Source of the DNA: a virus
Virus record (IMG/VR): IMGVR_UViG_3300010885_081999
Location: 1 to 64,000 of that record
Reading direction: 5' to 3' (one strand)
DNA: 64,000 nt
Positions within the stretch are counted from its first letter, which is position 1. Each line of letters starts with the position of its first letter. This document shows, piece after piece, positions 10,811 to 58,046 of this stretch. The translations under genes and the position numbers were made by a program. Below the pieces are notes generated by a model, which saw only the letters and a list, made by a program, of their open reading frames with translations, was not told where the DNA came from and ran no database searches.

Positions 10811-11401
10811 CTATCTTGTGATCTTGCGTGACTCAGACAGAGCCTCGCCGTGGAGCGACTCGAGCATCTCCCTGAAGTAGTCTCCGAAAGAAGACCCGAG
10901 GAGCACGTCGCGAGTTTCCCAGCTCGGAACTCCCTCGTGTGACGGCTTAAGCTTGCCGTGATAGGACGTCACCTTGAATGTCGTGACGAGCTTGCCGTTG
11001 CTCACACGGGTGAACACGGGAAACAGCTCGTCTGCCTTGATGCCCGTCTCCTCCCAGAGCTCACGAGCTGCGGCTTCGAGGGGATCCTCCCCGTGTTCGA
11101 CGCCGCCGCCGGGCATGTTGAGGTCCGTCGCGTCGCCGAAGCGGGTGACAGCGAGGACCTTGTCGCCCTTCGTCACATAGACGACTGCGGCCTTGGGAAT
11201 CGAATCGAGACGCTGCTTTTCGGCCTGCGCTTCGGCCTCGACGTCACCGAGGAGCGACGTCCTGTTGCCTCTGACTGCGGCGTCACCTCTCAGGTTGCCG
11301 GGTGCGGTTGCCCTCAGGGTGGAGGCCATGCTGTAATCGCCTCTCACCTCTGTGACGTGTTCAGATCGACTTGAGGTCCTCTTCGTCTTCAGCTTCTTCA
11401 C
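10811..11401 (-). CDS. NUDIX hydrolase (start uncertain; alternative ATG at 11329)
   Basis: Nudix box GGGVEHGEDPLEAAARELWEETG. Confidence 0.85.
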   Translation of the reverse strand: MKKLKTKRTSSRSEHVTEVRGDYSMASTLRATAPGNLRGDAAVRGNRTSLLGDVEAEAQAEKQRLDSIPKAAVVYVTKGDKVLAVTRFGDATDLNMPGGGVEHGEDPLEAAARELWEETGIKADELFPVFTRVSNGKLVTTFKVTSYHGKLKPSHEGVPSWETRDVLLGSSFGDYFREMLESLHGEALSESRKITR

Positions 11402-11777
11402 GCTTTCGAATCTCCTTCTCGATCGTCCTGATCTCTGGCGAGAACTTTGCAGACAGTGCCTTCTTCGTCAACGACTTTGCCTTTTCGATGTCTCCCTTTG
11501 CACGGGCAGCGATCTTGGGCATCTTGATCCGTGCGAATTTGACGATCTTTTCCTTGGTTTCGTCGGGAAAGTCTATGTCGTAATACAGTTCCATGTCCTC
11601 GATCCACTCCGAAGAGAGGTCGTCTGCAGGACCCGTTCCAGTGAAGAAAGACTTCAGCTTGTCGAGGAAGCCTCGCTTCTTCGTCTTCTTCTCTTCGCTT
11701 TCTTTTTCGTTGCCACGCCAGTAGAACTCCTCGTTGAGGACGGACTTGACGTACTCTTTCAGCAGTCTGTCGTTCAT
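11361..11777 (-). CDS. Hypothetical protein with LLKEYV...LNEE leader (putative virion-internal)
   Basis: N-terminus MNDRLLKEYVKSVLNEE. Confidence 0.7.
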   Translation of the reverse strand: MNDRLLKEYVKSVLNEEFYWRGNEKESEEKKTKKRGFLDKLKSFFTGTGPADDLSSEWIEDMELYYDIDFPDETKEKIVKFARIKMPKIAARAKGDIEKAKSLTKKALSAKFSPEIRTIEKEIRKREEAEDEEDLKSI

Positions 11778-11778
11778 G

Positions 11779-12249
11779 TCAGGCCTTCTTCGCTTCCTTG
11801 AGCTTCTTTATGGTTCCGACGACGTCGATGACTTGACCGGCGGCTCGACGGGCATCGATCTCGAAGGGACTGTCATAATAGGGATCGCTTCCAGGGCAAC
11901 CCAGCTTTATCGCGATGTAGCTGAGAGCATACACGATGGGCTGGAACACACCGAGCCTCATGCACTGTTGGACGTGGCGTAGTTCATGGGTCACGAGGGC
12001 CGACTTCTCGTCGGGCGTCGCGTTGAGAACTACGACGTTTCCGATGGTGTGTCCTCCCCATGCCTTCCATGCGGAGTTGAGCCAAGCAGGCGACTTGTCA
12101 CGGAGGACCTGCCACACCATTGCGTCGCCTATCACACCGTGCCACCTGTACCACCCGACCAGCGTGAACAAACCTGCATAGGCAAGACCAGGAAGCGTCA
12201 CAGGAGATGCCCATGCATAACCCAAGATTTTTTTGACTTTGTCCCACAT
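11779..12249 (-). CDS. HExxH-containing putative metallopeptidase/membrane protein
   Basis: GHTIG...THELRHVQQ...PFEIDAR. Confidence 0.65.
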   Translation of the reverse strand: MWDKVKKILGYAWASPVTLPGLAYAGLFTLVGWYRWHGVIGDAMVWQVLRDKSPAWLNSAWKAWGGHTIGNVVVLNATPDEKSALVTHELRHVQQCMRLGVFQPIVYALSYIAIKLGCPGSDPYYDSPFEIDARRAAGQVIDVVGTIKKLKEAKKA

Positions 12250-12320
12250 GACAGTGTCCTCCGCGAGGCAAATATGATCGAAGTGCCCTCAGGCGTTCTC
12301 AATAACTATGCAGATTCCGC

Positions 12321-12327
12321 ATATTTA
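12321..12327 (+). promoter_or_regulatory. Class B (putative late) promoter motif ATAnTTA, example of about 19 copies
   Basis: ATATTTA 5 nt before ATG 12333; recurs upstream of many genes on both strands. Confidence 0.65.
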
Positions 12328-12332
12328 GAAGC

Positions 12333-12944
12333 ATGAAGATCACCGAGAGCAAACTCCGAGTCATCGTCAGAGAAGAGTATCTCAAGAATTCTGAGGCGGC
12401 AGGATTCACTCCCAACCTCACGGAGGGCATGAGATGGCACCTGACCGAATCAGTTCCGTTCGATAGACCAGTATACCGTGCAGGAACGGAAAAGTACTTC
12501 ACTTTGATCAGGGAGGCACGCAACCTCTACGGCTCCGGAGACTACACACCGATGAGCGACTTCGAGAGAGACCTGCTGGAATCTGACCTCGGTGAGTACG
12601 ACATGTTCGAGGGTGCGATGGTTCCTCTCGACTTTCCGTTCCGCGAAGGTGACCTCACGGAGGCGAAATACAAGGGCAAGGAAGTCGAACTCGGCAAGCC
12701 GAAGCACGGCGAGGGCGGCAAGGCCTACGTCTACGTCAGGGACCCAAAGTCAGGCAACGTGAAGAAGGTGAAGTTCGGTTCGTCGATGCCCGATGCGATG
12801 GGCGACTCAGACGCCGCGAGGAAGAGGCGCAAGTCGTTCGGTGATCGTCACGACTGTGCCAACAAGAAGGACAGGACGAAGCCGGGCTATTGGGCATGCA
12901 GGGCCACCAAGTTCTTCGGTAGGGACATACCCGGTTGGTGGTGA
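12333..12944 (+). CDS. Leader-tagged virion protein with conserved large-phage C-terminal domain
   Basis: MKITESKLRVIVREE leader; VYVRDPKSGNVKKVKFG...SFGDRHDC...GYWAC. Confidence 0.75.
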   Translation: MKITESKLRVIVREEYLKNSEAAGFTPNLTEGMRWHLTESVPFDRPVYRAGTEKYFTLIREARNLYGSGDYTPMSDFERDLLESDLGEYDMFEGAMVPLDFPFREGDLTEAKYKGKEVELGKPKHGEGGKAYVYVRDPKSGNVKKVKFGSSMPDAMGDSDAARKRRKSFGDRHDCANKKDRTKPGYWACRATKFFGRDIPGWW

Positions 12945-13216
12945 AGTTTCCGTTCGACGAAGAGACTCTCGAGAGCGGTTCGAGACTCCGAACTTTCTCA
13001 AGTGACTCTGCGCTAGAAGAACTGGTTTGGCACAGGGATGCCGACGACAGACTTGTGCGAGTCATCAAGTCGCAGGGCTGGTACATTCAGTTCGAAGATG
13101 AGCTGCCGAGAGAGATGCGGCCTGGTGACGTCTTCTTCATTCCGAAGGAGACGTGGCACCGTGTGATCCGCAAGAGTGACAGCCCACTCGTCGTCGAAAT
13201 CGAAAGTCAGTCGTAA
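12941..13216 (+). CDS. Small cupin-like protein
   Basis: ELVWHRD...FIPKETWHRVI; GTG start overlaps the upstream stop. Confidence 0.7.
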   Translation: MKFPFDEETLESGSRLRTFSSDSALEELVWHRDADDRLVRVIKSQGWYIQFEDELPREMRPGDVFFIPKETWHRVIRKSDSPLVVEIESQS

Positions 13217-13884
13217 TACGACGTCGCCGGTCGGCGCTTCTGCGGAGCGATCTTTCTCGCGCCGTGGTCGAACATCCACTGCGCGAGCTCGGGAAGGCCT
13301 GCCACGCCCGTTCCCCTGAGGTCAGTCGCCATGATGACGCCTGTGATTCCGCGACCTGCGGGGTCGTAGTTGAATGCGATGCTGTCCTTGCGGAGTCGAA
13401 TGGAGAACGCCTTCACGGAGTTGAGAGACGGCGTGCCGTAGGTGGTCACTCTGCCCAGCATCTTGAGGATCTTCTCGTCCTTCTTCGTGAGATTCTCTCC
13501 ACCGTCGACCTGCTTGATCTTCGCGAGAGCGGCCTTATGAGCCCATGCAGTGCCACCGGCACGAGAATCGTACTCAGGGACGCGGACGAGCTCGCCAGGA
13601 GCGAAGGTGGACGTCATGTCTGCGGCCCAGATCCACACTCCCGGACTACCTGGCTTGGGTCCTGCGCCGGGCTCCCACGACATGTCGTCTGGAAAGTCTG
13701 CGAGGTCTCCTGCGTCTTCGATCTCGTCGAAGAAGACTTCTTCACCGCCGTACTCGGGTTCTTCGACCGAGACGTACACGTCGCCTTCTTGAGGCATGGC
13801 ACCAGGGTTTCCCGCTGTGGCTTCGGTTACGCGAGCGACTTCTTCTTTGATGATGCGTCGAAGGTGATCGATGGAGATTCTCAT
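13207..13884 (-). CDS. Leader-tagged hypothetical protein
   Basis: MRISIDHLRRIIKEE leader; ATAGTTA upstream. Confidence 0.75.
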   Translation of the reverse strand: MRISIDHLRRIIKEEVARVTEATAGNPGAMPQEGDVYVSVEEPEYGGEEVFFDEIEDAGDLADFPDDMSWEPGAGPKPGSPGVWIWAADMTSTFAPGELVRVPEYDSRAGGTAWAHKAALAKIKQVDGGENLTKKDEKILKMLGRVTTYGTPSLNSVKAFSIRLRKDSIAFNYDPAGRGITGVIMATDLRGTGVAGLPELAQWMFDHGARKIAPQKRRPATSYYD

Positions 13885-13896
13885 GGCGTTTAACTA

Positions 13897-18351: not shown

Positions 18352-19464
18352 TCAGAGTGCCTTTATCTTTTGGATCACAGCACGATAGTCCTTGATGTAC
18401 TGCGCTTCTTCGGGTATGCCGGCCTTGAGGACCTTGTCGACGTGATCCTCGAGGCTCTTGATGTAGAACTCCTTGGAAGCCTTTCGCGAGCCGTCGACGA
18501 GCATCTTCTCCGCCTTGGTTTTCTCCTGAGGTGGGAGCTTCTTGATCTCCTCGACCTTCGCCTTCGCGTCGCCTTTCAACTTGCTTCCTGCGGCCTTCTC
18601 GATGTCCTCGATCGTCTTCACCTTCTTGAGGACGTTCTCGGCCTGTGAGAAGACGTCGGTCAGCGTCTTCCTGTAGACCTTCGTCGCATCGGCCTGCATC
18701 TTCTTGACCTGCGGTGCATCGAGGGCCTTCGCGAGGAACTTCTTGCTGGAGAGTATCTTTGCGGGAGTGAACTTCTTCTTGTCGTCTGGCTCGTCGTCTT
18801 CTCTCAGCTGTGACTCTCCCCACATGGAGCGAGGACCGTCCTTCTTCTTGGAGGGCTTGGATCCGCCTCTGCCGTCGTCGCCCAGTGCCATCCTACCGGC
18901 GGCCTCCAGCTTCGACGTGACGGAGTCGTACAGTTCATCGGAAAAACCACCCGTCACTGCGGATAGAAGCTCCTTGGACACGGCGGCGCTCTTCTTCGTG
19001 GCGACCGCACCGAGGACGAGAGCAGGCGACGCCATGAACGCGAGGAGTCCTGCGTCGGGCGACGCCAGAGCTGCGTCGGTGCGCGCATACACGTCCTTGT
19101 ACTCACCCTTGATCTTCTCGATGTCTTCCTTTTCCTTGTCGAAGACGTCTGCATAGTTGTAGCCGTATATCGGGATCAGCGTGGTGAGTACCGTCTGAAG
19201 GCCGACCCAGAGGACGGTCCTCGCCTTACGGGTGATCTCCTTGGTCTTTCCTACTGCCGTCTTGAAGACGTCGACGAACGGTCCGATGAAGGCATCGTAC
19301 ATGTCGTTGCCGCTGCCGTAATGTGCTCCGCCCATGCCCATGCCCGAATCGTACGAAGAAAATCCTCCGCCGAACATCGCGGGATTGCCGCCAGCCTCAT
19401 CCTCAACGAGGAGGGAATTCCTGACGTATTCACGCAGCAGAATCTCGTCTCTTCTATATCGCAT
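18352..19464 (-). CDS. Leader-tagged hypothetical protein (putative virion-internal)
   Basis: ILLREYVRNSLLVE leader; ATATTTA upstream. Confidence 0.7.
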   Translation of the reverse strand: MRYRRDEILLREYVRNSLLVEDEAGGNPAMFGGGFSSYDSGMGMGGAHYGSGNDMYDAFIGPFVDVFKTAVGKTKEITRKARTVLWVGLQTVLTTLIPIYGYNYADVFDKEKEDIEKIKGEYKDVYARTDAALASPDAGLLAFMASPALVLGAVATKKSAAVSKELLSAVTGGFSDELYDSVTSKLEAAGRMALGDDGRGGSKPSKKKDGPRSMWGESQLREDDEPDDKKKFTPAKILSSKKFLAKALDAPQVKKMQADATKVYRKTLTDVFSQAENVLKKVKTIEDIEKAAGSKLKGDAKAKVEEIKKLPPQEKTKAEKMLVDGSRKASKEFYIKSLEDHVDKVLKAGIPEEAQYIKDYRAVIQKIKAL

Positions 19465-19472: not shown

Positions 19473-19497
19473 TAAATATACTTCGATCCCATATTTA
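19473..19497. promoter_or_regulatory. Back-to-back ATATTTA motifs driving divergent genes
   Basis: TAAATAT at 19473-19479 (minus) and ATATTTA at 19491-19497 (plus). Confidence 0.65.
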
Positions 19498-19503: not shown

Positions 19504-20097
19504 ATGAGAAGCATTGGACTCGTCCCCATGGCAGCGAAGCCGTATCACGCAGGTCACGACGGTCTCGTGAGGATCGCAGCGAAGGAGAACGATGAGGTAC
19601 GTCTGTTCGTGTCGCTGCTCGACAGGGTGCGAAAGGGAGAGACTCCCGTATACGGAGTCGACATGAAGAAGGTCTGGGACCTCTTCATAGAGCCGTCTCT
19701 GCCTGGAAACGTCGAGGTCCAGTACGTCAACGTTCCCGTCCAGGAAGTGTATCGATCGATCGAGGAAGCTGAAGGAGACGAAGACGTCCTGTTCAGGATC
19801 TATTCTGACGACGAGGACATCTTGAAGTACAGCGACGCGTCGCTGTCTAAGTCTGCGCCAAAGCTGTTCGCCAACGGACAGATCGAAAGACGCGGAGTGG
19901 CGAGATCAGAGACGGTTCCCGTCAGCGGAACAGAGATGAGGGGCTACATCGGGTCAGGTGACGTAGAGAAGTTCATCGAGTTGCTTCCTCCCGCCGTGAG
20001 GAAGAACGGTCAAGAGATCTACGATCTCCTCAGCAGACGCCCGATGGGTGAGAGCCTGCTGAGGAGATATGTCGGATTGTGCTTATCAGCGTCTTGA
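19504..20097 (+). CDS. Cytidylyltransferase-like (HxGH) nucleotidyltransferase
   Basis: KPYHAGH and VSGTEMR motifs; C-terminal ESLLRRYV. Confidence 0.75.
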   Translation: MRSIGLVPMAAKPYHAGHDGLVRIAAKENDEVRLFVSLLDRVRKGETPVYGVDMKKVWDLFIEPSLPGNVEVQYVNVPVQEVYRSIEEAEGDEDVLFRIYSDDEDILKYSDASLSKSAPKLFANGQIERRGVARSETVPVSGTEMRGYIGSGDVEKFIELLPPAVRKNGQEIYDLLSRRPMGESLLRRYVGLCLSAS

Positions 20098-21366
20098 CGT
20101 CTTCTTTGCAGACAGGGCGTTTGCTACTACACTCTGTACTTTCTTCAGGGTTGTTGCAGCACTTCCTCCTGGTGCTTTGGCCATGGGACCTGCATGAACT
20201 TTGTACTGTATCACCAAATTAGTGCCTTGAAGTGAAACTGCTTCTGGCATGCTGTCTTTCACTGCACTAATGCTCTTCAGCTCTGGGGGGGTCAGGCTGA
20301 TTCTTGACGTTGATCCTCCCGTACCAGGTCTAAACATCAGAATAGGCTTGTGGGAAGTGTCACTTGGGATGTTATTTTTGGCATCGCGTGCGTAAAGATG
20401 ACCATTTTCTCCAACGTCAAGCTTGTACAAGTTTCCAGCTTTCTTGAGTGTCATGCCAGCGATGTCAGAAACTATGATGAAAGCACATTCGTCAGCAGGA
20501 TCTCCCTTGGGTCCATAGATGAATACTTCTGCAATCTTTGGGTCGTCAATTTCTGCATACCAGCCAGAGACATAAGACGTCTCGCCTGCAACTAACATGT
20601 CCTTGTATGTCGCTGTGGATTCTTCGATAAACTTCTGAGTGAAGTCAATCAGTTTCTTTTCGTTCTTGTCGCCAGAACCTGATGCATTCAAATTCTGAAG
20701 CAGTCTAGTCACTGCTGAGTAAGTCTGAGGGGGCATGTTGCCTTTTTGTACCTTGTGTGATATGCCCGTGCCTTCTATTTGGTTTCCAGACGTATCGACC
20801 AGAATAAAGTCCGAGTGTGCTGCCTTGTTCTCGTTCTTTATGATTCCGCCGACGCCGGAGAAATTCTTGCCAGCAATTTGAACAGTTATCGGCTTTCTAC
20901 CGCCTTGCGTAGCTTCGTCAAATGAAGCCTGCAAGTTTTGAAGAGCTCCTGCCTCTGCATGCAATTCTTCGCCCTTAGAGACGAGCCAGCTGTATTTCGC
21001 GCCTGGCGTCACACTCATACTGTAGACGTTAGGTGATTTATCAAATTCAGCGTTTCTCTGGGGGCGCTTACCCTTAGCCAAACTATTGGCTGCACCTATC
21101 TCATCAGGTGTAAAGTCTCTGTTCAGCAAATTGATGTTGAGCTCAGAACCATCTGGTGTCAAAACACCCACCAGACGTCTGTCTAAGTCATCTGGGTTGA
21201 CCTTGACTCTCTTTTTTGTCAATGCTGCTGTGATTGCAGTCTTGACAGGGACAGGTGCGTTGGAAAACTTCACACCAAAGTAAGGTCGCTCTGGCCGAAT
21301 AGTGCCTTCTAGCAGTGGCCTAAGACCCAAAGCTAGCTTCAGATACTCTCTCAATAGTTTGCTCAT
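20086..21366 (-). CDS. Leader-tagged putative PD-(D/E)xK-like nuclease (lower GC)
   Basis: MSKLLREYLK...LLE leader; HSDFILVD...GISHK motif; AT-richer codon usage. Confidence 0.55.
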   Translation of the reverse strand: MSKLLREYLKLALGLRPLLEGTIRPERPYFGVKFSNAPVPVKTAITAALTKKRVKVNPDDLDRRLVGVLTPDGSELNINLLNRDFTPDEIGAANSLAKGKRPQRNAEFDKSPNVYSMSVTPGAKYSWLVSKGEELHAEAGALQNLQASFDEATQGGRKPITVQIAGKNFSGVGGIIKNENKAAHSDFILVDTSGNQIEGTGISHKVQKGNMPPQTYSAVTRLLQNLNASGSGDKNEKKLIDFTQKFIEESTATYKDMLVAGETSYVSGWYAEIDDPKIAEVFIYGPKGDPADECAFIIVSDIAGMTLKKAGNLYKLDVGENGHLYARDAKNNIPSDTSHKPILMFRPGTGGSTSRISLTPPELKSISAVKDSMPEAVSLQGTNLVIQYKVHAGPMAKAPGGSAATTLKKVQSVVANALSAKKTSRR

Positions 21367-22760: not shown

Positions 22761-23027
22761 CTATTTCTGCTTCTCGTTGATCTGATTCTTCTTCTTCGCG
22801 GACTGAAGTTCCTTGCGGAGGTGGTTGTACACGTTGCGGTAGTGTCCCCTCTTCTCGGAGCCTTGAGGATACTTGTCGCGCCAATAGGCTGCGTCAGAGC
22901 AACGTGCCTCGAGATCGGCCACGTGGTCGTCCGAGCCCCACTCGGATGTGCGATCCCCGCTGAGAAGGGCCTGTTTCATTTTTCGCTCTATGATGAGCCT
23001 GACGTACGTCTCAATCAGCTTTTCCAT
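22761..23027 (-). CDS. Leader-tagged hypothetical protein
   Basis: N-terminus MEKLIETYVRLIIE. Confidence 0.65.
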   Translation of the reverse strand: MEKLIETYVRLIIERKMKQALLSGDRTSEWGSDDHVADLEARCSDAAYWRDKYPQGSEKRGHYRNVYNHLRKELQSAKKKNQINEKQK

Positions 23028-25409: not shown

Positions 25410-26282
25410 TTACTCCAGGGGATCGATGACCTTTTGACCCGACTTGCGCGCCTTTGAGAGCGACTTGTCGAGGAACTCTCGGAAGCCGTCGAGGCCTGCG
25501 ACGATGTTCGGGTGGTCCTTCATCAACTGGACGTCCGCGGACGTGAGCTCACCGGACTTGCGAAGAAAGTCGATGTAGTCGTTCATCGCGGTGAGGGTGA
25601 GGATCTCTGCCTCGTCGGAATCCATCGTCATCACGAACTTCGCCTTCTCGAGTGCCCTCTGGACTGCCTGGCGGGCGCCTGGCACTCCTGCATATCCGAG
25701 CTCCTTTGCGATCTCTTCGAATGTCGCTTCCTCGTCGCTTGCCATCGTATAGCCGCGCTTCGTCGACTTGATCGCGCCTGTGCCCTTGCATGCCTTGCAG
25801 TCCTTGCCGTCAGGCATGATTCCTTCGCCCTCGCAGGCCTCACACTCTTGATAACCTGCACGAACGCCAGACCCGATGGATCCAGCGAGGCCTGCAGAAG
25901 CGAGGTCGTTGTAGGAAGCCTCTCGAAGCATCTTTCTCACAGCGAGACGGATCGTCTCTTCAACCTTCTTGTCCTTGTTCATCTCTTTGTCCTCTTCTTT
26001 CATGTCTTCGACGACGTCTGTGACGGCAGAGTAGAAAGATTCTGCGTCGTCGTCCGAAATGCTATCTATGAGGGTCGATAAAGCCGAACGAAGTTCCATT
26101 CGGTTTTTCGGCCTGAAGTTGGGATTGCCCGGATCTGTCTCTGCAGCAGAGGGATCCACGACAGGCGACACACCTACGGGAGCCGTCGATAGGTCTCCGG
26201 TCGACTGCCAACCCATGCCCGGCGTCGTGATCATCTCGCGGATGTATTCGCGGACGGCGATGTCGCTGACGACGAGCTTCAT
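25410..26282 (-). CDS. Hypothetical protein with DnaJ-type Zn finger and HTH-like region
   Basis: CEACEGEG and CKACKGTG; TFEEIAKELG...ARQAVQRALEK; start moved to MKLVV (26282). Confidence 0.65.
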   Translation of the reverse strand: MKLVVSDIAVREYIREMITTPGMGWQSTGDLSTAPVGVSPVVDPSAAETDPGNPNFRPKNRMELRSALSTLIDSISDDDAESFYSAVTDVVEDMKEEDKEMNKDKKVEETIRLAVRKMLREASYNDLASAGLAGSIGSGVRAGYQECEACEGEGIMPDGKDCKACKGTGAIKSTKRGYTMASDEEATFEEIAKELGYAGVPGARQAVQRALEKAKFVMTMDSDEAEILTLTAMNDYIDFLRKSGELTSADVQLMKDHPNIVAGLDGFREFLDKSLSKARKSGQKVIDPLE

Positions 26283-28723: not shown

Positions 28724-29457
28724 TTCACCACCTGGGCCATCGCTTCTGCCTTCTTGAAGCGGTCCTCAATGACCGACCAGTTGAACTCTCTCATCTGCGA
28801 AATGAGGTAGGACTTGGGATCATTGAGATAGTCCTTGTAGTACGCGTGCTCCCACATGTCGACGACGACGAGGGGATAGAAGCCCATCGGGACGCTGCCT
28901 GCATGGTCGTCTATCATGAAGTTGACGTACTTCTTCAGGAAGAGGTGGTAGCCACAGACTGCCCAACCGCCACGTGATGCGAGGGCACACGCCATGAAAT
29001 CCCTCTGCCAGTCGTCGAACGTCCCGAAGTCACGCTGTAGCCTGAGGAAGGCGAGAGAATCCATCACCACCTCGCTGTGCGGATCGAAGCAGTTTGCGAA
29101 GTACAGCTCGTGGAGCCACACGGCGTTGAGGTTCCACGTCTCGTCGAGCTTCAGCGTCCTAAACTGAGAGTGGCGATGATTGACGTCCGATCTCTCTGCA
29201 GTGTCGAGCTCCGCCGACACCTTGTTGAGGGACTCGACGTAGTTCTTGTACTTCTCGATGTGCGCTGACTTCGTCTTCTGGGAGACGAATTCCGAGACCT
29301 GCTTGAACTGCTTCGGCTCGGCAACGTATGACTCGTTCAAAGACTCGTCGGAGGGTAGCTTCGCAGTCTCCTTGACGAGATGTGACTGGATGGTTCTCTT
29401 GATGATACCGTCGACGTCGATGCCGGCGAGAGGATGCTTCTTGTCAATCGATTTCAT
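28720..29457 (-). CDS. Fe/Mn superoxide dismutase family protein with N-terminal extension
   Basis: AHIEKY, LHELYF, DFGTFDDW and VDMWEHAYY metal-ligand motifs. Confidence 0.85.
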   Translation of the reverse strand: MKSIDKKHPLAGIDVDGIIKRTIQSHLVKETAKLPSDESLNESYVAEPKQFKQVSEFVSQKTKSAHIEKYKNYVESLNKVSAELDTAERSDVNHRHSQFRTLKLDETWNLNAVWLHELYFANCFDPHSEVVMDSLAFLRLQRDFGTFDDWQRDFMACALASRGGWAVCGYHLFLKKYVNFMIDDHAGSVPMGFYPLVVVDMWEHAYYKDYLNDPKSYLISQMREFNWSVIEDRFKKAEAMAQVVK

Positions 29458-29725
29458 AGTTCTTCTCCAGGTCTTCTTTGTTCACGAGAAACTGCTTTCC
29501 TTCGGGCGTCTTCAGGATCACGTCGCGAGGGCCGACAGACATGACGGTGTAGAGAAACTGCGTTTTCTTGTGGCGCAGCTTCAGGTCTGTATCGATCAGC
29601 GTCTTTTCCTCGCCGTCGACCTTGCCCTTCATGACAGCGTCAACTGTTTCCGAGAGGGCAGCAACCTTTGCGTTCCATTCCTCTCTCATGATTCGTATGA
29701 TGTCGGCCTCTTCGAGTTTTTTCAT
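29444..29725 (-). CDS. Leader-like hypothetical protein
   Basis: DIIRIMREEW; ATATTTA upstream. Confidence 0.65.
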   Translation of the reverse strand: MKKLEEADIIRIMREEWNAKVAALSETVDAVMKGKVDGEEKTLIDTDLKLRHKKTQFLYTVMSVGPRDVILKTPEGKQFLVNKEDLEKNYEID

Positions 29726-31705: not shown

Positions 31706-31734
31706 ATTATAGGACGCATGCCTTCAAGAGTTCA
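31706..31734 (-). promoter_or_regulatory. Class A sigma70-like promoter TGAAC-N18-TATAAT, 6 nt before ATG
   Basis: Same architecture found at more than 12 other gene starts. Confidence 0.65.
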
Positions 31735-39514: not shown

Positions 39515-40117
39515 TCAGACCCGGTAGCCCTTGTCCACAGCCAGCGTCTCTGCCTCTATGCCAGCAGCTTCGAGCTGATCGACGATGGCTTGTGCCTCCT
39601 CCTCTGAAGCGAAGGCACGAGACGAATTGTAGCCGGGGTTGGCGCTCGAAGCACCCACGAGCTTGAACTTGATGCCATTTTTCGCAGCAATTGCATCGAA
39701 GGTCTTCTTGGTCTTGTCCCACTCCTTCGCAGAAAGGCCAGAATAAGACGGCGGAAGTATGTGTCCGCTGAGGGCAACAACCCACTCTCTCGGGGCCGAA
39801 GAGAAAGAGTCTATGTATTCGAGGACCGCGGAGGTCATGTTGGCCTCGGTCGCTCCCTGGGAGATCCAGTCCGCCATCCTGTCGACGATTGGATCGGTCT
39901 CTTTAGGGGGATACATGACGCCTGGGAGACCACGAAGATACGACCAGGCTTCAACGGCAGCGCCGTATGCATTGCCTGTCTTAAAGGCCTTGACGAACCC
40001 TGCGTTGGCCAATACCCTCTTGACGATCTGTGCACTGACGTCGGTTCCTTCGCGGAGGGCGACCTTCTGCACTTCTTCCTTGATGATTCTGCGAAGCTGA
40101 CTGACTGTGATCTTCAT
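39515..40117 (-). CDS. Leader-tagged hypothetical protein
   Basis: MKITVSQLRRIIKEEVQKVALRE; ATATTTA upstream. Confidence 0.75.
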   Translation of the reverse strand: MKITVSQLRRIIKEEVQKVALREGTDVSAQIVKRVLANAGFVKAFKTGNAYGAAVEAWSYLRGLPGVMYPPKETDPIVDRMADWISQGATEANMTSAVLEYIDSFSSAPREWVVALSGHILPPSYSGLSAKEWDKTKKTFDAIAAKNGIKFKLVGASSANPGYNSSRAFASEEEAQAIVDQLEAAGIEAETLAVDKGYRV

Positions 40118-40160
40118 GCGTTTTTCCTTTTGATCGAAAGAAATGCAAATAAATATTCCG

Positions 40161-46101: not shown

Positions 46102-46764
46102 TCAGAGCATCGCGAGAGCAGACTGTAGAGTGGTTCTGTCCACCTTTCCAGCAAGCTGGTCGCCGACGTACTCCTTGAACACCGGATCGCTCACGTCATC
46201 GCATCCCAAATCGGGGCAATGTCCTTCGTAGTTGCGAATGATGTAGTCAACAAGCTTGACTGGGTCGGCAGGTATAACGTCCATCGACCGTCTACGAGGA
46301 CCGCCGCCGTCGTGTTCGGCAACGAAGCCCCAATCGCCGCTCTTCCATGCCGCGAACTCCTCTTGGGTGATGCGAGCGTGGCCCTCTTTCAACGACTTCG
46401 CCTTGCGCTTGCGAGACTCGCCCATTGGTGCAGCGGGCATCGAAACCGACGGCTTGTCGTAAGCACGAAGCTTCTCGTCACCCTCAAGGTAATCCTTGAC
46501 GTGCTCCAGGTCGGTGTGAGCAGAGGCCACGAGGTCCTGCACCCAAGCAGGAAGCTGGTCTCCCATCTCGATGAGACCGCAGATGGTCTCGGCCATGTCC
46601 TTGACGTCTGACATGCGAGACTTCACCATGTAACCCTCGTCGTCCATCGGGTGACCGGACTCAAAACCGTGGAGGAAGCGCTGGGGATCCTTGCCTCCGG
46701 CAGGCATCATGGACTCGACTTCTTCCTTGATGATCTTGCGTAGTTGTGTTGCTGTGAGCTTCAT
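46102..46764 (-). CDS. Leader-tagged virion protein
   Basis: MKLTATQLRKIIKEE; EGYMVKS...LPAWVQ...DYL domain typical of large-phage head proteins. Confidence 0.75.
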   Translation of the reverse strand: MKLTATQLRKIIKEEVESMMPAGGKDPQRFLHGFESGHPMDDEGYMVKSRMSDVKDMAETICGLIEMGDQLPAWVQDLVASAHTDLEHVKDYLEGDEKLRAYDKPSVSMPAAPMGESRKRKAKSLKEGHARITQEEFAAWKSGDWGFVAEHDGGGPRRRSMDVIPADPVKLVDYIIRNYEGHCPDLGCDDVSDPVFKEYVGDQLAGKVDRTTLQSALAML

Positions 46765-46776: not shown

Positions 46777-47235
46777 TTACTTCTTCCTTGTTGCCTTGAA
46801 ATCCGCAGTCGCCTTGCCTGTGGGTTGGAATTTCTGACCGAAGCCGGCCTTCCACAGCATGCCTGTGGCCGTCTCGGCGTAGTAGAAGTCGCCGTCCCTG
46901 AAGAACTTCACGAGCTTGTTCTTCTTTGCCTCTGCAGGAGTCGTCCTCGTCGCACCGAATGCCTGCTCCGCGGGCACCGGTTGGAGCCTCTGACCCAGAG
47001 GAGTCGTCGCGACGTACTCATCGCGACGATTCTTGCGTAGCGTCTCGGCAGCTCGGGCTGCGGCCACGACGAGGTCAAGTTGCTCGTCGTCGATATCATC
47101 GAGAGAAGATACACCAAAGAGGCTGAGAAGCGGCGTCTCGTCGACTCTCGCGCCGTATTTGTCCTTGATGACCTCAGTGATAGAAGTCATTTCTTCTTTG
47201 ATGATCCTGCGAAGTTGTGTTGCTGTGAGTTTCAT
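46777..47235 (-). CDS. Leader-tagged hypothetical protein
   Basis: MKLTATQLRRIIKEEMTSITE. Confidence 0.75.
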   Translation of the reverse strand: MKLTATQLRRIIKEEMTSITEVIKDKYGARVDETPLLSLFGVSSLDDIDDEQLDLVVAAARAAETLRKNRRDEYVATTPLGQRLQPVPAEQAFGATRTTPAEAKKNKLVKFFRDGDFYYAETATGMLWKAGFGQKFQPTGKATADFKATRKK

Positions 47236-47237
47236 CG

Positions 47238-47483
47238 TCACCACCGGCTCCCTCTACGGCCGTAACTTCCGCCTGAGCTTCCGCCCTCAAAGGGAGTCGC
47301 CTCCCCGTCCTCGAGCCACGAGTATTCGGGGCTCTCAGCAGAGTCGAAGTACTCCTCATTGCCCTCGTCGTCCACGAGGTATAGCTCAGTGCCGCGGCGC
47401 ACGATCGACTGTTCGTGCTCGAGCAGCACCTTCTGCAGTTCTTCTTTGATGATACGGCGGAGTTGTGTCGTTGTGATCTTCAT
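47238..47483 (-). CDS. Leader-tagged hypothetical protein
   Basis: MKITTTQLRRIIKEELQKVLLE. Confidence 0.75.
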   Translation of the reverse strand: MKITTTQLRRIIKEELQKVLLEHEQSIVRRGTELYLVDDEGNEEYFDSAESPEYSWLEDGEATPFEGGSSGGSYGRRGSRW

Positions 47484-48037
47484 TGCGGTAGCACCCTTTG
47501 CTTCAGTAGATATACGTGTCCTTCGTGCTTGTCCTCGATGCCCTGTAGCATGTTGTCGAGGCCACGCGTCATCGTGCCGCACTCCTTAAGGAGCTCGGCG
47601 AGGTGGGACATCACCTTCAAGAAGTTCATCTCGGCGAGATACGACCGCTTCGCGAGCTCGGTGGGCTGCGGGATGGTCGACGTCATGCCGTATCCCTGGA
47701 CGAGTTTCATGAGCTGTGAAGTGACGAGGACGAGGTCCACACACGCGGTGGAGCCGAGACCGATCGACTTCTCGGCGACTGTGTCGACGTCCTCGACTGT
47801 CGCCTCGTGGATGCGCTGAAAGAGGAGGTGATCACCGTAGAAAGGATCACCCTTCGTGATCCAGTGGTGGTTCTGGTGCACCGCCGCGAGGAACTTGAGG
47901 TGGACGAGAGCCACCGAGAGCTGTGCATAGGGCGTGGATCCCCACTGTGCGACCATGTTGTCGGTCATGATGTCGAGGTTCGGCTCGACGACGATCGCCA
48001 TCTCGAGAGTCTCTGAAAGCCTTCTCTTTGTCATCAC
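47480..48037 (-). CDS. Dps/ferritin-like protein
   Basis: HQNHHWITKGDPFYGDHLLF...DTVAEK ferroxidase pattern. Confidence 0.82.
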   Translation of the reverse strand: MMTKRRLSETLEMAIVVEPNLDIMTDNMVAQWGSTPYAQLSVALVHLKFLAAVHQNHHWITKGDPFYGDHLLFQRIHEATVEDVDTVAEKSIGLGSTACVDLVLVTSQLMKLVQGYGMTSTIPQPTELAKRSYLAEMNFLKVMSHLAELLKECGTMTRGLDNMLQGIEDKHEGHVYLLKQRVLPQ

Positions 48038-49182
48038 TTCAGCTCCAAGTTAAAGCCAACGAGGTCCACGCCAAGGGGATGAGGTCCCCACGTGATCCTG
48101 TACGGTTCGCCACGCAGCGACTGCTGGTTGTTCCAATGCGACACATAAGCGTCGAGAGCCTTCTCGGCTTTCGCATCGAAGCCACCCGGAACGGATGCCT
48201 TGACGGGCACGAGAGTCTCGGAGTTTCGGCCCTCGCCGATCCGATACTTCTTGATGCCTGCTGGAACCGTCGACTTGCGGACGGAGAATATCTTCTCCGC
48301 CTTCTCGATGTACTCTGAGGACGAGAGCGACGCCTCGAGGAGGTCTGCGACGGGATTCGCTGGTACTTCGATGACGGGCATCACGGCCTCGTCGAGGTGT
48401 GCCTCGGACCGAAGCCGGCGGACGATCGACATCAGCGATCCTTCACCGAGGACCTCCTTGTCGCGGTCCTCGATGCACTTGTATATCGCCTTGAGAAGCT
48501 TCTCTCTGTCCACCTTCACGCCTGAAGTGGCGTAGTGCGAGGCGGAGACCCGAGTCGCGAGGATCTCTTCCCACTGTCCCTCCAGGTTGGTGCCGTATTC
48601 CTTGCACAGCTTGTGTGCGAGCCTCTCGTACCAAGTGTCGGGCAGGTCCTTCAGGGGATCGGGAGACTTGACTGCGTCGCCGAGCGGGCCGTCGCCGTAC
48701 ATGTCGAAGGGCTCGTCCTGGGTCTTCGGCGTCGGAAGTCCTCCTTCTGCGAGGCGCTTCTCACGGGCGATCGAACGAAGCTGATCGTCACCGGGATTCA
48801 TCTTGACGGCCTCCTTCACGAGGGAGAGGGGGAGGCGGCGTGCAGCGGCACATCTCACGGAAGACGCTGCGTCTTCGAGGAGCCTGGCTGCGTGTCTCTC
48901 TGGAAGGAGACGGGCTGCGACCTTGCGGAGGACGACGGACTTGCTCGATGCCGCCTCGATGAGGACGGTGGTCTTTATCGCGGTGCGGTTGACTCCTCGT
49001 CCCGTGGACTCGAGGAGGTCGAGTTGTTCGATGGCGGCCTCTGCGACTTTCTCGCAGTTGCTTGAGACCATCACCGGAGGCCCAAATACTCTGAAAAGCT
49101 CGTCGCGAAGTGCGGTTCTGCTCTTCTCTTCTCTAATTGTGTTCTTCGCTACTCGCTGCAGCTCTTGAAGCTTCAGATGCAT
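48034..49182 (-). CDS. Leader-like protein with HEAT-like repeats
   Basis: LQELQRVAKNTIREE; LRKVAARLLP / VRCAAARRLP. Confidence 0.65.
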   Translation of the reverse strand: MHLKLQELQRVAKNTIREEKSRTALRDELFRVFGPPVMVSSNCEKVAEAAIEQLDLLESTGRGVNRTAIKTTVLIEAASSKSVVLRKVAARLLPERHAARLLEDAASSVRCAAARRLPLSLVKEAVKMNPGDDQLRSIAREKRLAEGGLPTPKTQDEPFDMYGDGPLGDAVKSPDPLKDLPDTWYERLAHKLCKEYGTNLEGQWEEILATRVSASHYATSGVKVDREKLLKAIYKCIEDRDKEVLGEGSLMSIVRRLRSEAHLDEAVMPVIEVPANPVADLLEASLSSSEYIEKAEKIFSVRKSTVPAGIKKYRIGEGRNSETLVPVKASVPGGFDAKAEKALDAYVSHWNNQQSLRGEPYRITWGPHPLGVDLVGFNLELK

Positions 49183-49230
49183 GTTGAATAGACTCCTTTG
49201 CGTAAGTATCCGACAAGGAGTAAATCATAA

Positions 49231-49419
49231 TCACTTAGAGGACAATTTCATGTCCTTTGCCCATGCCCTGATCTTCTTCTTCGCCCAGTTGGGGACATAG
49301 ACGCTGTCCTCTTCGAAGGCAGGATCGTCCATGAGCTCCATGGTATAGGTCTCGTCAGGCTGTGATCCTCCGAAGACCTTCCTCACTGTCTCGCGTAGTT
49401 GTCCTATCGTCATCCTCAT
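49231..49419 (-). CDS. Small leader-like hypothetical protein
   Basis: MRMTIGQLRETVRK; ATACTTA 6 nt upstream. Confidence 0.6.
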   Translation of the reverse strand: MRMTIGQLRETVRKVFGGSQPDETYTMELMDDPAFEEDSVYVPNWAKKKIRAWAKDMKLSSK

Positions 49420-56078: not shown

Positions 56079-56123
56079 TGGTAAACTCCTGTGTGTCGAT
56101 ACTACACTGTTGACGATTTTCGG

Positions 56124-56717
56124 TCAAGCTGGGATGCAACGGACAGTTGCGAGGATCGTCCTAATCTCCTGTGCGACTTTCTCCTTCGACTTCTCACAGT
56201 CTACGACGTGGACCTTCTCCTCTTGAGCGTCCACCCACTTCGCGTAGAGATCCCTCACTTTTTGCTGCAGGACGGTGTCTTTCTCGTAGGCGTCCTCGGC
56301 CTCGTGGGCATGTGCCTTGCCGAGAAGGACGAGCGTGAAATCGGGACAACGTAGAAGTCGATACATCTTGTCGATCGTGGCCTCATCGATCCCCTCGGCC
56401 ATTCCGTACACAGAAGTCGAAGGACTCCACCTGTCGAAGATGATGTAGTCGTACTCGTGCTCGAGTTTGACGAGCTGGAAGCTCTGAAAAATCCATCTAT
56501 TCAAGACCTGTAACCACTGGAAAGTTTTTGGAAACTTTTTCGCAGACCCATTCCGCAACATCCAGTAGATCAATCGATAGGTGACGTTGTCGTGGATCGG
56601 CACCTCGACGACGCATGCCCTCTTCTTGAGGGCTCCCGTGATGTGATCGCAGAGCATTTGGCTCTGTGTCGCCTTTCCGACACGGTCCGGTCCCTCGATG
56701 ACGATGATCCTGCTCAT
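56124..56717 (-). CDS. tmk: Thymidylate kinase
   Basis: EGPDRVGKATQ, FDRWSPS and PDFT. Confidence 0.85.
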   Translation of the reverse strand: MSRIIVIEGPDRVGKATQSQMLCDHITGALKKRACVVEVPIHDNVTYRLIYWMLRNGSAKKFPKTFQWLQVLNRWIFQSFQLVKLEHEYDYIIFDRWSPSTSVYGMAEGIDEATIDKMYRLLRCPDFTLVLLGKAHAHEAEDAYEKDTVLQQKVRDLYAKWVDAQEEKVHVVDCEKSKEKVAQEIRTILATVRCIPA

Positions 56718-57400
56718 TCGAACGGCTCCCTGAGAGTGCTCACATACTGTCCGTGTGGAACCATTTCCTCGAAAGTCAACTTGAACGCCTCCAGCGTGGC
56801 ATCGAACACGCCGAGGTCGGACACCTGTGCGAGCATCTCGTGTGCAAGCTCCCTGACTTCGAGTTGTGCGTGCTTAGAATAGCGCAGCTTGAGAAAGTGA
56901 TAGAAGCTGCGGAAGTTGAACATGACGTCTGCTGTGATCTGGTTTCCGTAGGGGAGGTAGAATCGGGCAGATTCCTTTGCCCTCTTGCGAGGCATTCCTT
57001 TCGAGACGAGTCGTTCTAGCGTCTCGTGATACTTGTGGAGAGAATACTCGAGGTGTGTGATGTACTTCTCTCGTTCCTCGGTGTCCCAATCGACAGGAAC
57101 ATAGTACTTGTCGTCTTTCAACTCCTTGTATCGGGCCGACTCCGCATTGACGGAGACGCCGATTCGATGCTTCAAGATGTGAATGTGTGTCGCTACGTCC
57201 GTGGTGACGAGGAAGTGCAACGCACTCTTCTCGAAGGGCGTCTCGTGACTGTTCTCAGCCAGCATCTGCAAGAGAGAAGGAATTCGGGCTCTCTTCTCTT
57301 CTGTCAAGTCTCTCGACGTCGACGTCCAAGCAGAGAGCCCGTGTGTTTCGTCGGAACCATAATGTCCGACAAGCTCTACTTTGTTTTCTTGTGCAGGCAT
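56714..57400 (-). CDS. thyX: Flavin-dependent thymidylate synthase
   Basis: HETPFE, KHRIGVSVNAESARY, ESARFYLP, NFRS and HAQLEVR. Confidence 0.92.
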   Translation of the reverse strand: MPAQENKVELVGHYGSDETHGLSAWTSTSRDLTEEKRARIPSLLQMLAENSHETPFEKSALHFLVTTDVATHIHILKHRIGVSVNAESARYKELKDDKYYVPVDWDTEEREKYITHLEYSLHKYHETLERLVSKGMPRKRAKESARFYLPYGNQITADVMFNFRSFYHFLKLRYSKHAQLEVRELAHEMLAQVSDLGVFDATLEAFKLTFEEMVPHGQYVSTLREPFE

Positions 57401-57456
57401 GTTCCGATCTTACACCGGAATGCGCCAAAGTTCAAACGTGAGGTGTCTTCTCAGTC

Positions 57457-57738
57457 TCAGAGAACGGCGTCGATCGCATGCATCATGATGCTGAAAATTG
57501 CCTCTGAGCGGACGTCGCCTCGTTCTGCCTTCTCAGCGTATGCCTGCATGAAGGCTTCTTCGAGACCCGGAAGCGAAAATACCTTGGGAGCATCCGTCGT
57601 CGTCGTGTAGAGGTCCCAGTAGTGTTTCGCCTCACGTGAGATTCGAGGATCAACGGGAGGTGCCACGTCGGCTTCGCCTAGAGCCTTCTGAGCTTCTTCT
57701 CTGATTATCCTGCGGAGTTGTGTCGTAGTGATCTTCAT
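57457..57738 (-). CDS. Leader-tagged hypothetical protein
   Basis: MKITTTQLRRIIREEAQKALGE. Confidence 0.75.
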   Translation of the reverse strand: MKITTTQLRRIIREEAQKALGEADVAPPVDPRISREAKHYWDLYTTTTDAPKVFSLPGLEEAFMQAYAEKAERGDVRSEAIFSIMMHAIDAVL

Positions 57739-57752
57739 GACGCTTCTCCTAA

Positions 57753-58046
57753 CTATGTGCTCCTGATGAATTGTAGCATCTTGTCCTCGAGAACTTTCTT
57801 GATGTCTTCTTCAATCTCTTCGAGGACTTCGTTCGCTGCAGCGAGCATCTCTCTCTGACGTACCGAATCCGATGCTGTTATCTGTATGTGACGTTTGAGG
57901 TGACGCTTGAGTCCCTCGGCTGCGTCGGATGCCACCTGCGACAGAGCGAAGTCAGGTATGCCACGAGCATAGTCTTCCGCAAGGACAGTTCGAATTTCTT
58001 CGACGACCAAACGCCTCAGTCCTGCCCTCGCGTCTTTCAAGGTCAC
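57753..58046 (-). CDS. Leader-like hypothetical protein
   Basis: LRRLVVEEIRTVLAE. Confidence 0.65.
   Translation of the reverse strand: MTLKDARAGLRRLVVEEIRTVLAEDYARGIPDFALSQVASDAAEGLKRHLKRHIQITASDSVRQREMLAAANEVLEEIEEDIKKVLEDKMLQFIRST

What the first reader, a model, noticed from the sequence alone, without database searches (positions are those of the whole stretch)
11361..58046. A portable N-terminal address tag on about 17 unrelated proteins (putative capsid-loading / protease-cleavage system)
Seen, type 1 (MK(I/L)TxxQLRRII(K/R)EE): 12333, 13884, 40117, 46764, 47235, 47483, 57738, with looser forms at 29725, 32502, 49182, 49419, 58046. Type 2 (LL(R/K)EY(V/L)...LxE): 11777, 19464, 21366, 23027, 26282, and C-terminally at 20097. 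Sequences diverge completely after a nearby hydrophobic-x-E site (ALRE, VLLE, SITE, ALGE, LLVE). Known: T4 internal proteins carry an N-terminal capsid targeting sequence removed by prohead protease gp21 after (L/I)-x-E. Inference: a genome-wide system by which arbitrary cargo is tagged for packaging and injection, with two tag classes.
Basis: partly seen in the sequence, partly recalled or inferred. Interest (0 to 1): 0.85.

Follow-up and report, generated by a model that had tools for sequence, protein, structure and literature searches.

The report
Shared head-loading tag on phage proteins
A fragment of an uncultured, roughly 300-kb marine T4-type phage starts seven to ten otherwise unrelated proteins with the same 22-residue peptide. 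The peptide ends in the cutting motif of the T4-type head protease, so it is most likely an expanded form of phage T4's signal for loading proteins into the capsid, but neither loading nor cutting has been observed.

Summary
The core observation is real, but the count of about 17 is too high. Seven window proteins, and two or three more on the same 103.7-kb contig, begin at residue 1 with tag T1 (MK-I/L-T-x-x-QLRRIIKEE plus about 7 residues ending in hydrophobic-x-Glu). Their bodies are unrelated, and conservation is at protein level, not DNA level.

Tag T2 (LL-R/K-E-Y-V/I-R..LL.E) is solid for two proteins. A third carries it at its C-terminus. Eight 'looser' cases do not rise above noise.

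The contig is about one third of a T4-type jumbo phage. T1 heads at least 7,203 protein clusters in public metagenomes, is absent from 50,697 GenBank phages, and in cellular genomes occurs only on MAG contigs, which I take to be misbinned phage DNA.

Several lines support a T4-like capsid-targeting leader:
- Eight of nine large tag-bearing contigs encode the gp21-type head protease.
- A complete close relative has a T1-type protein two genes after that protease.
- In multi-tag proteins, 97 of 148 internal tags follow a hydrophobic-x-Glu site, usually at a fixed offset.
- In this contig the tagged genes favour the promoter-like heptamer that precedes the tail sheath genes.

No radical-SAM partner enzyme was found. 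Packaging and cleavage remain unobserved. This scan has noted the same kind of system, and apparently this same tag, on other DNA.

The parts
12333..12944 (+). T1-tagged gene (203 aa). The tag is residues 1-22, nt 12333-12398. It is the most diverged of the clear members.
   Evidence: 13.2 bits against the IMG/VR-derived T1 HMM, noise 3.5. The body matches phrog_7595 at residues 109-190. The orthologous body in relative G010 carries a different N-terminus.
13207..13884 (-). T1-tagged gene (225 aa)
   Evidence: 22.6 bits. No Pfam or PHROG family. No body orthologue in G010.
39515..40117 (-). T1-tagged gene (200 aa). The body is an orphan, possibly SPOR-like.
   Evidence: 41.7 bits. Only itself was found among 5.8 billion proteins. 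There are weak SPOR hints: 17.3 bits, below the Pfam cut-off, and Atlas TM 0.43.
46102..46764 (-). T1-tagged gene (220 aa)
   Evidence: 33.0 bits. The G010 orthologue (49% identical) carries two T1 tags; the inner one follows V-P-E-G-K.
46777..47235 (-). T1-tagged gene (152 aa)
   Evidence: 34.1 bits.
47238..47483 (-). T1-tagged gene (81 aa)
   Evidence: 40.9 bits. Orthologue in G010.
57457..57738 (-). T1-tagged gene (93 aa)
   Evidence: 39.9 bits. ATAGTTA heptamer at -18.
18352..19464 (-). T2-tagged conserved gene (370 aa). The tag is residues 9-23.
   Evidence: 12.9 and 9.8 bits against T2 HMMs, noise 4.2 and 6.8. In a family of 114 metagenomic clusters, L9, L10, E12, L19 and E21 are at least 90% conserved and Y13 is invariant. 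AlphaFold2 gives a helix at 5-18, a low-confidence stretch to about residue 108, then helical domains. No fold match in the PDB.
25410..26282 (-). T2-tagged gene (290 aa)
   Evidence: 7.0 and 8.3 bits, just above noise. Orthologue in G010 with a similar N-terminus.
19504..20097 (+). Nucleotidyltransferase-like gene (197 aa, HxGH-type motif) with a T2-like peptide at its extreme C-terminus, about nt 20047-20094.
   Evidence: Its score is near noise (4.3 and 3.1 bits). The C-terminal peptide is conserved in the orthologues of G002, G007 and G010. Weak Pfam match to the nucleotidyltransferase-type family PF08218.
29444..29725 (-). 'Looser' member, not supported as a tag. It is a conserved core gene.
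   Evidence: 0.3 bits. 70% identical full-length orthologue in G010.
48034..49419 (-). Two 'looser' members (48034-49182 and 49231-49419), not supported as tags.
   Evidence: 3.2 and 1.1 bits. Both have full-length orthologues in G010. The heptamer before 49182 may head the unit that contains 47483, 47235 and 46764.
57753..58046 (-). 'Looser' member, not supported.
   Evidence: 0.7 bits. The G010 orthologue has a different N-terminus.
31732..32502 (-). 'Looser' member, not supported.
   Evidence: No positive T1 score. No family.
11361..11777 (-). Weak type-2-like N-terminus, not above noise.
   Evidence: 1.6 bits.
20086..21366 (-). Weak type-2-like N-terminus, not above noise.
   Evidence: 1.5 and 2.2 bits.
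22761..23027 (-). Weak type-2-like N-terminus, not above noise.
   Evidence: 0.2 bits. The orthologues carry other helical N-termini.
12321..12327 (+). ATAnTTA promoter-like heptamer 12 nt before the start codon at 12333. Like copies lie at 13891-13897(-), 19473-19479(-), 19491-19497(+), 40150-40156(-), 49203-49209(-) and 57750-57756(-).
   Evidence: 26 of 32 copies on the contig lie within 70 nt upstream of a gene in sense orientation, binomial p about 1e-30. The same heptamer precedes both sheath genes and two nearby genes I take to be tail tube and neck.

Best explanation
T1, and probably T2, is a capsid-targeting leader of the kind phage T4 puts on its internal proteins.

Shown:
- A 22-residue peptide with hydrophobic residues spaced as in an amphipathic helix heads many unrelated, mostly small and acidic proteins.
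- It is found in a clade of roughly 280-300-kb T4-type phages.

Inferred:
- The helix docks the protein onto the scaffolding core while the prohead assembles.
- The gp21-family protease then cuts after Glu in hydrophobic-x-Glu sites (I-K-E at residues 12-14, and residues 20-22). This removes the leader and separates the modules of multi-tag polyproteins.
- The freed bodies stay in the head and enter the host with the DNA, probably as a fast-changing set of take-over or counter-defence proteins.
For: - Tag reality and portability.
- Clade identity: the contig is rated 32% complete. It is syntenic with G002 and G007 and shares a 69%-identical protein with the complete genome G010.
- The gp21-family protease PF03420 is present in 8 of 9 large tag-bearing contigs. 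A gp23-family capsid protein is present in G002.
- In G010 the gene order is protease, 138-aa protein, 81-aa protein, then scaffold and capsid protein. The 81-aa protein scores 7.1 bits on the T1 HMM, against noise of 1.6-3.5. The 138-aa protein fits a loosened T1 DNA pattern that has zero reversed-pattern hits in five genomes.
- The scaffold N-terminus ends in I-A-E-A in G002 and G007, like T4 gp22.
- [LI]-x-E density is 2.5-3.7 per 100 aa in the protease, scaffold and core proteins, against 1.13 in the proteome.
- Among the top 150 of 7,203 tag-bearing clusters, 97 of 148 internal tags have hydrophobic-x-Glu in the preceding 10 residues, against 15.6% in control windows (p about 2e-42). The site most often sits at one fixed offset, and 45 internal tags lack an initial Met.
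- 7 of 12 solid tagged genes carry the ATAnTTA heptamer that precedes the tail sheath genes, against 19 of 113 other genes (Fisher p 0.003).
- Known biology: T4 leaders are 10 residues, are cut after L/I-x-E, and sit on diverse internal proteins. Alt is also cut at its C-terminus (PMC9026906, PMC3012670).
Against: - No virion proteomics or cleavage data exist for any member.
- The head module is not on this fragment, so the link rests on relatives.
- Hydrophobic-x-Glu is a low-information motif in Glu-rich helices.
- At roughly 15-45 tagged genes per genome, the set far exceeds any known set of internal proteins.
- In G002 and G007 the big T1 arrays do not carry the late-type heptamer individually.
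- The 138-aa core protein is not significant by HMM.
- T1 is far more conserved and longer than T4's 10-residue leader, which may mean another or an additional partner.
- One T2-bearing protein looks like an ordinary nucleotide-metabolism enzyme.
Confidence: 0.55

Rival explanations
1. The tag is a docking helix for some other hub, not the prohead. The hub could be a phage-encoded chaperone (these phages encode DnaK, DnaJ and GroEL), a replication or transcription factory, or a host target. The tagged proteins would act in the cytoplasm and would not be packaged.
For: - Hydrophobic residues of the tag are spaced every 3-4 positions, as in an amphipathic helix, and T2 is position-independent.
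- The tag is extremely conserved across phages of 39-55% GC.
- By their N-terminal sequences, G002 and G007 appear to encode DnaK-, DnaJ- and GroEL-like proteins (not checked against family libraries).
- The large T1 arrays in G002 and G007 lack the late-type heptamer.
Against: This does not explain the fixed hydrophobic-x-Glu site before internal tags, the T1-type protein inside the head gene cluster, or the association with the late-type motif in this contig.
Confidence: 0.2
2. The tag is an oligomerisation (coiled-coil) helix of a fast-diverging family of small proteins descended from one ancestor. It would then be a retained structural element, not an address.
For: - Tandem arrays of up to 7 tagged genes point to duplication.
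- The hydrophobic positions follow a heptad-like spacing.
Against: - The bodies fall into 132 BLAST groups out of 182 proteins. They include unrelated known domains: YkuD with T1, and DUF192 and CCA-adding domains with T2.
- Orthologous bodies occur with and without a tag, or with the tag on the other side.
- Tags also lie between modules, each with a junction site.
Confidence: 0.15
3. The tag is a leader recognised by a modifying enzyme, as in RiPP systems.
Against: The radical-SAM family PF04055 is absent from the complete genome G007, from G008 (92% complete), and from G002 and G000. It is present only in G009. The bodies are 60-450 aa, not short peptide cores.
Confidence: 0.04
4. The repeat is a nucleic-acid feature, such as a promoter, a translation enhancer or a recombination site, that happens to overlap gene starts.
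For: It always lies at the 5' end of genes in this contig.
Against: Third codon positions vary freely and Leu and Arg use different codon families, while the upstream DNA is unrelated. The same peptide occurs in genomes of 39% to 55% GC.
Confidence: 0.01

Closest known systems
Phage T4 capsid targeting sequence (CTS) on internal proteins IPI, IPII, IPIII and Alt, removed by the prohead protease gp21
   Same: - A short N-terminal leader is shared by otherwise unrelated, mostly small proteins.
- The leader ends in hydrophobic-hydrophobic-x-Glu.
- The phage has a gp20/gp21/gp22/gp23-type head module.
- The cargo set is hypervariable between relatives.
- C-terminal propeptides also exist in T4: the review reports C-terminal processing of Alt and expects it for gp21 (PMC9026906, PMC3012670).
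   Different: - The leader is 14-22 residues rather than 10, and has no sequence similarity to the T4 leader.
- There are tens of tagged genes per genome instead of four or so.
- A second tag class works at N-termini, at C-termini and between modules.
- Tags are strung into polyprotein-like ORFs.
- Nothing here has been shown experimentally.
Propeptides of head and inner-body proteins of phiKZ, 201phi2-1 and SPN3US, cut by a diverged gp21 homologue
   Same: These giant phages have many head-internal proteins, cut after Glu in a short motif, with redundant sites in the propeptides (PMC9026906, PMC5694885).
   Different: Those propeptides are not one shared portable tag, and those phages have a different head gene set. 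Here the protease matches Pfam's gp21 family above the curated cut-off.
Encapsulation peptides of bacterial microcompartments and cargo-loading peptides of encapsulins
   Same: They are short helical or linear peptides, N- or C-terminal, that address diverse cargo to the inside of a protein shell. This is a resemblance in how it works, recalled from general knowledge.
   Different: They are not removed by a protease. The shells are not DNA-filled virions. No homology was tested or claimed.
RiPP precursor families with one conserved leader and many variable cores, such as the prochlorosins
   Same: One conserved leader on many variable bodies, arranged in gene arrays.
   Different: No matching maturase was found. 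The bodies are whole proteins or domains.

Membership tests
T4-type capsid-targeting leader / internal-protein system | The same short leader on proteins whose remaining sequence is unrelated. | tested here: met
   9 proteins on the contig score above noise and all carry the tag at residue 1. Their bodies align only through the tag.
T4-type capsid-targeting leader / internal-protein system | The leader ends in the gp21 cutting motif (L/I)-x-E. | tested here: met
   I11, E14 and E15 are invariant and I12 is at least 90% conserved across the aligned tags. In IMG/VR tags, position 19 is L/V/I/M in 82%, position 20 is L/M/I/V in 68%, and position 22 is E in 56%. This is sequence level only.
T4-type capsid-targeting leader / internal-protein system | The genome encodes a gp21-family prohead protease within a T4-type head module. 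| tested here: inconclusive
   Not on this 32%-complete fragment. Present in the close relative G010, next to the scaffold and capsid protein genes, and in 8 of 9 large tag-bearing contigs.
T4-type capsid-targeting leader / internal-protein system | Sequence similarity of the leader to the T4 leader. | tested here: not met
   The T4 IPII leader was recovered from GenBank phages with a 30-aa query. The T1 consensus finds nothing in the same 50,697 records. Only the M-K start and the closing motif are alike.
T4-type capsid-targeting leader / internal-protein system | Tagged proteins are present in virions with the leader removed, and are injected. | not testable with these tools
   This needs virion mass spectrometry or a packaging assay.
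Leader peptide of a radical-SAM/SPASM-modified protein family | A radical-SAM enzyme is encoded in the same genome. | tested here: not met
   PF04055 is absent from the complete genome G007 and from G008, G002 and G000. It is found only in G009.
Tat or Sec signal peptide | A hydrophobic core region of 12 or more residues after the basic or twin-Arg motif. | tested here: not met
   The R-R-I-I is followed by K-E-E and a charged helix, with no hydrophobic stretch.
Microcompartment or encapsulin cargo peptide | A microcompartment shell protein or an encapsulin shell protein is encoded nearby. | not tested
   Considered only as an analogy. The only shell-forming protein seen in the relatives is the gp23-family capsid protein.

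The most novel reading that the evidence does not exclude
An uncultured clade of roughly 300-kb marine T4-type phages gives about 4-15% of its genes to a tag-addressed, protease-jointed 'injected proteome'. One nearly invariant 22-residue tag (T1), on at least 7,203 distinct protein clusters worldwide, loads a fast-turning-over set of small acidic proteins and enzymes into the capsid. The cargo would include cell-wall-active domains that lack export signals. A second tag (T2) would work from either end of a protein or between modules.
Probability: 0.4. Interest if true: 0.8.

Novelty: new variant of a known kind. Interest (0 to 1): 0.6.

Why it matters
If true, the capsid of these ocean phages is a delivery vehicle for dozens of proteins per genome and thousands of kinds overall. 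T4's handful of internal proteins would then be the small end of a much larger strategy. The tagged set would be a ready-made catalogue of candidate host take-over and counter-defence proteins. The tag itself, with its junction motif, would be a defined loading and release signal that can be tested directly. The tag is also a cheap marker for this phage clade, and for its contigs that have been misfiled in bacterial genome bins.

Tried and rejected
- Pfam and PHROGs on the tagged proteins gave almost nothing.
- tblastn of a tagged protein and of the T1 consensus against GenBank phages found nothing useful.
- Full-text paper search for the tag letters found no paper.
- A word-indexed protein search restricted to residues 1-40 returned only close relatives of that one protein.
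- AlphaFold2 plus Foldseek on 18352-19464 gave helical domains with no PDB match.
- The ESM Atlas gave only weak SPOR-like hints for 39515-40117, and DUF6267-type phage clusters for 21363-22628.
- The resemblance of the 138-aa head-core protein and of the capsid protein N-terminus to T1 is not significant by HMM. I use only the 81-aa protein and the DNA-pattern hit.
- The late-promoter association did not carry over to the T1 arrays of G002 and G007.
- The radical-SAM rival was tested and dropped. A DNA-level repeat was dropped. A Tat signal was dropped.
I therefore could not extend this contig into its own head module, and used the relative G010 instead.
Full report
**What the window is.** The window is the first 64 kb of a single 103,725-bp IMG/VR virus record that CheckV rates 32% complete. 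It encodes UvsX-like and gp32-like proteins, a DnaE-type polymerase, two tail-sheath-like proteins and a baseplate hub. It has no terminase, portal, protease or capsid gene. By gene order and orthologues it belongs with IMG/VR contigs of about 200-300 kb:
- G002: 201 kb, 44% GC.
- G007: complete, 293,409 bp with terminal repeats, 39% GC.
- G010: complete, 297,894 bp, 43% GC. It encodes a 69%-identical copy of the protein at 102070-103032.

The capsid protein of G010 is closest to an uncultured 484-kb phage. The next closest are Flavobacterium phage immuto (43% identity), Microcystis phage Mel-JY01 and Rhodothermus phage RM378. This suggests the neighbourhood of the 'Far-T4' phages of PMC4360716, a paper that mentions no such tag.

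**The observation, type 1.** Seven window ORFs start with the type-1 tag: 12333+, and 13884, 40117, 46764, 47235, 47483 and 57738 on the minus strand.
- An HMM built from eight of these proteins and run against the six-frame translation of the whole contig finds ten copies. Every copy sits at the first residue of an ORF, and there is no internal copy.
- An HMM built only from IMG/VR sequences scores nine contig proteins at 13-42 bits. The best reversed-sequence score is 3.5.
- The 60 nt upstream are unrelated. Inside the tag, Leu and Arg use different codon families, so the conservation is on the protein.
- BLAST of the bodies (residue 25 onward) of 182 distinct tagged proteins gives 132 groups, 100 of them singletons. 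The contig's own tagged proteins align to one another only over residues 1 to about 25.
- The body of 39515-40117 has no relative among 5.8 billion proteins.
- The bodies are mostly acidic, with median pI 4.5.

**The observation, looser forms and type 2.** Four of the five 'looser' type-1 cases score 3.2 bits or less, and the fifth (32502) gives no positive score. Four of them are conserved core genes with full-length orthologues in G010, so their N-termini are conserved as part of an orthologue, not as a portable tag. For type 2, only 19464 and 26282 exceed noise. The C-terminal copy ending at 20097 scores weakly, but it is kept at the C-terminus of the orthologues in G002, G007 and G010. 11777, 21366 and 23027 are not supported.

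**How far the tag reaches.**
- Beyond the 15 residues fixed by the pattern, positions 16-22 stay conserved and then conservation collapses. Position 19 is L/V/I/M in 82%, position 20 is L/M/I/V in 68%, and position 22 is Glu in 56%.
- A profile of 84 tags finds 7,203 clusters at E of 0.001 or less among 1.84 billion cluster representatives.
- The consensus finds nothing in 50,697 GenBank phage records. A 30-residue T4 IPII query recovers 304 records in the same database, so the method works.
- In 185,579 prokaryote genomes the pattern occurs in only 8 stretches on 6 MAG contigs. These include a 305,838-bp contig and the same 101,404-bp record that IMG/VR lists as viral. I take the MAG hits to be misbinned phage DNA.
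- The tag is therefore specific to an uncultured phage clade. No paper in the library contains the tag letters.

**Link to the head.**
- Pfam's gp21 family (PF03420) is found above the curated cut-off in 8 of 9 large tag-bearing contigs. The exception is a 32%-complete fragment.
- G002 has a gp23-family capsid protein.
- In G010 the order is protease, a 138-aa protein, an 81-aa protein, two paralogues, a 689-aa acidic scaffold, then the capsid protein.
- The 81-aa protein scores 7.1 bits on the IMG/VR T1 HMM, with noise of 1.6 in that genome.
- The 138-aa protein is not significant by HMM. It is, however, one of five hits in G010 to a loosened T1 DNA pattern that has no reversed-pattern hit in five genomes.
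- The scaffold N-terminus ends in I-A-E-A in G002 and G007, as in T4 gp22 read from NC_000866.
- [LI]-x-E is 2.2 to 3.3 times denser in the protease, scaffold and the two core proteins than in the proteome.
- From PMC9026906: gp21 cuts after L/I-x-E. The 10-residue leader of IPIII suffices for packaging, and leader residues 8 and 10 govern cutting. Alt is also cut at its C-terminus, and giant-phage propeptides carry redundant sites.
- T1 offers I-K-E at residues 12-14 and a second site at 20-22.

**Junction sites.** This is the strongest new evidence. The best-scoring 150 of the 7,203 clusters are mostly ORFs with two to four tags. Of 148 internal tags, 97 have hydrophobic-x-Glu within the ten preceding residues, against 15.6% in control windows of the same proteins (p about 2e-42). 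In 48 cases the Glu lies exactly three residues before the tag, typically followed by Gly, Ser or Asn and a basic residue. Forty-five internal tags do not begin with Met, and some begin with residues that cannot come from a start codon. The orthologue of 46102-46764 in G010 shows the same thing: tag, 85-residue module, V-P-E-G-K, second tag, then the shared body.

Type 2 behaves alike. It recurs three or four times inside 824-1104-aa proteins, usually preceded by a Glu-Ser pair, often within hydrophobic-x-Glu-Ser. In G007 it also sits between a DUF192 domain and a CCA-adding/poly(A)-polymerase domain.

**Portability.**
- DUF192 carries T2 in front in G002 and behind in G007.
- The G002 orthologue of 21363-22628 has a C-terminal T2 that the window protein lacks.
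- One IMG/VR T1 protein carries a YkuD L,D-transpeptidase domain without an export signal.

**Timing.** ATAnTTA occurs 32 times on the contig, and 26 copies lie within 70 nt upstream of a gene in sense orientation (p about 1e-30). It precedes both sheath genes and two nearby genes I take to be tail tube and neck. In G002 and G007 it precedes the genes I read as portal and scaffold, and the sheath genes. Seven of the 12 solid tagged genes carry it directly, against 19 of 113 others (Fisher p 0.003). Eleven of 12 lie in units headed by it (p 0.054). In G002 and G007 the big T1 arrays do not carry it individually, so this support is limited to the G000 contig.

**Rivals.**
PF04055 is absent from the complete G007 and from G008, G002 and G000.
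- A DNA-level element is excluded.
- A Tat signal is excluded, because no hydrophobic core follows the twin Arg.
- A docking helix for another hub, or a retained oligomerisation helix, cannot be excluded. Neither explains the junction sites or the head-cluster member.

**Verdict.** The tag is real, portable and widespread. The best reading, at about 55%, is an expanded, sequence-distinct version of T4's capsid-targeting and protease-processing system. The concept is known from T4. The scale, the tag itself, the second position-free tag and the polyprotein junctions are new, and I found no description of them in the searched literature. Earlier notes of this scan describe the same kind of system, and apparently this same tag, in other windows. 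No step of packaging, cutting or injection has been observed.

Noticed in passing
window 12321-12327, 13891-13897, 19473-19479, 19491-19497; contig-wide: The ATAnTTA heptamer often lies only 12-13 nt before the ATG, with no Shine-Dalgarno sequence between. There are 11 such genes. Late transcripts here may therefore be leaderless or nearly so.
   Followed up: partly
L118:8070-9032 (contig 102070-103032, outside the window); L162:3198-5267 and 10001-10984: The scaffold protein and one or two other proteins per genome end in the same C-terminal motif, R-W-x-x-L-A-G-I/L plus 2-5 residues. This includes the contig's 320-aa protein, which has a T1-like start. The motif also ends the scaffold-like protein of Flavobacterium phage immuto. 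It may be a second, C-terminal head-binding signal.
   Followed up: partly
L160:6576-9347 (G007 286576-289347): A 923-aa ORF strings together DUF192, a T2 motif, a CCA-adding/poly(A)-polymerase head domain with its RNA-binding domain, and a PAP2 phosphatase. It looks like a polyprotein of RNA-end-repair-type enzymes.
   Followed up: partly
L024:6255-7055: A T1-tagged protein with a YkuD L,D-transpeptidase catalytic domain (73.9 bits) and no export signal. This is a cell-wall enzyme that would need another route to the periplasm.
   Followed up: no
L134, L139 (NHDW01000006.1, 305,838 bp); L135, L137 (PBIO01000025.1, 101,404 bp): Contigs filed in MAGs named Methylococcaceae TMED69 and Halobacteriovorax SP2999 carry T1 tags. 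The second has the same length as a tag-bearing IMG/VR viral record. They are probably phage contigs misplaced in bacterial bins.
   Followed up: no
window 3042-7469: Three co-oriented genes match phage families. One is annotated as a sporulation protein (SpoVR-like), and the set looks like a YeaH/PrkA/SpoVR-type trio. It is headed by the ATAnTTA heptamer. G007 carries a gene with a similar N-terminus behind the same heptamer.
   Followed up: no
G007 176269-178167 and 178261-180150 (L154): Two adjacent near-identical capsid protein genes: the first 42 residues are identical.
   Followed up: no
G002 190381-198904 (L131, L132): An array of about 12 small genes (60-80 aa) that all start M-K-V-G-D-L-V-K. 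Unlike T1, this looks like an ordinary paralogue family in which the whole protein is related.
   Followed up: no
window 34425-39405: The DnaE-type polymerase is split into two ORFs with a small ORF between them. Other first-reader notes call it a split intein. I did not examine it.
   Followed up: no
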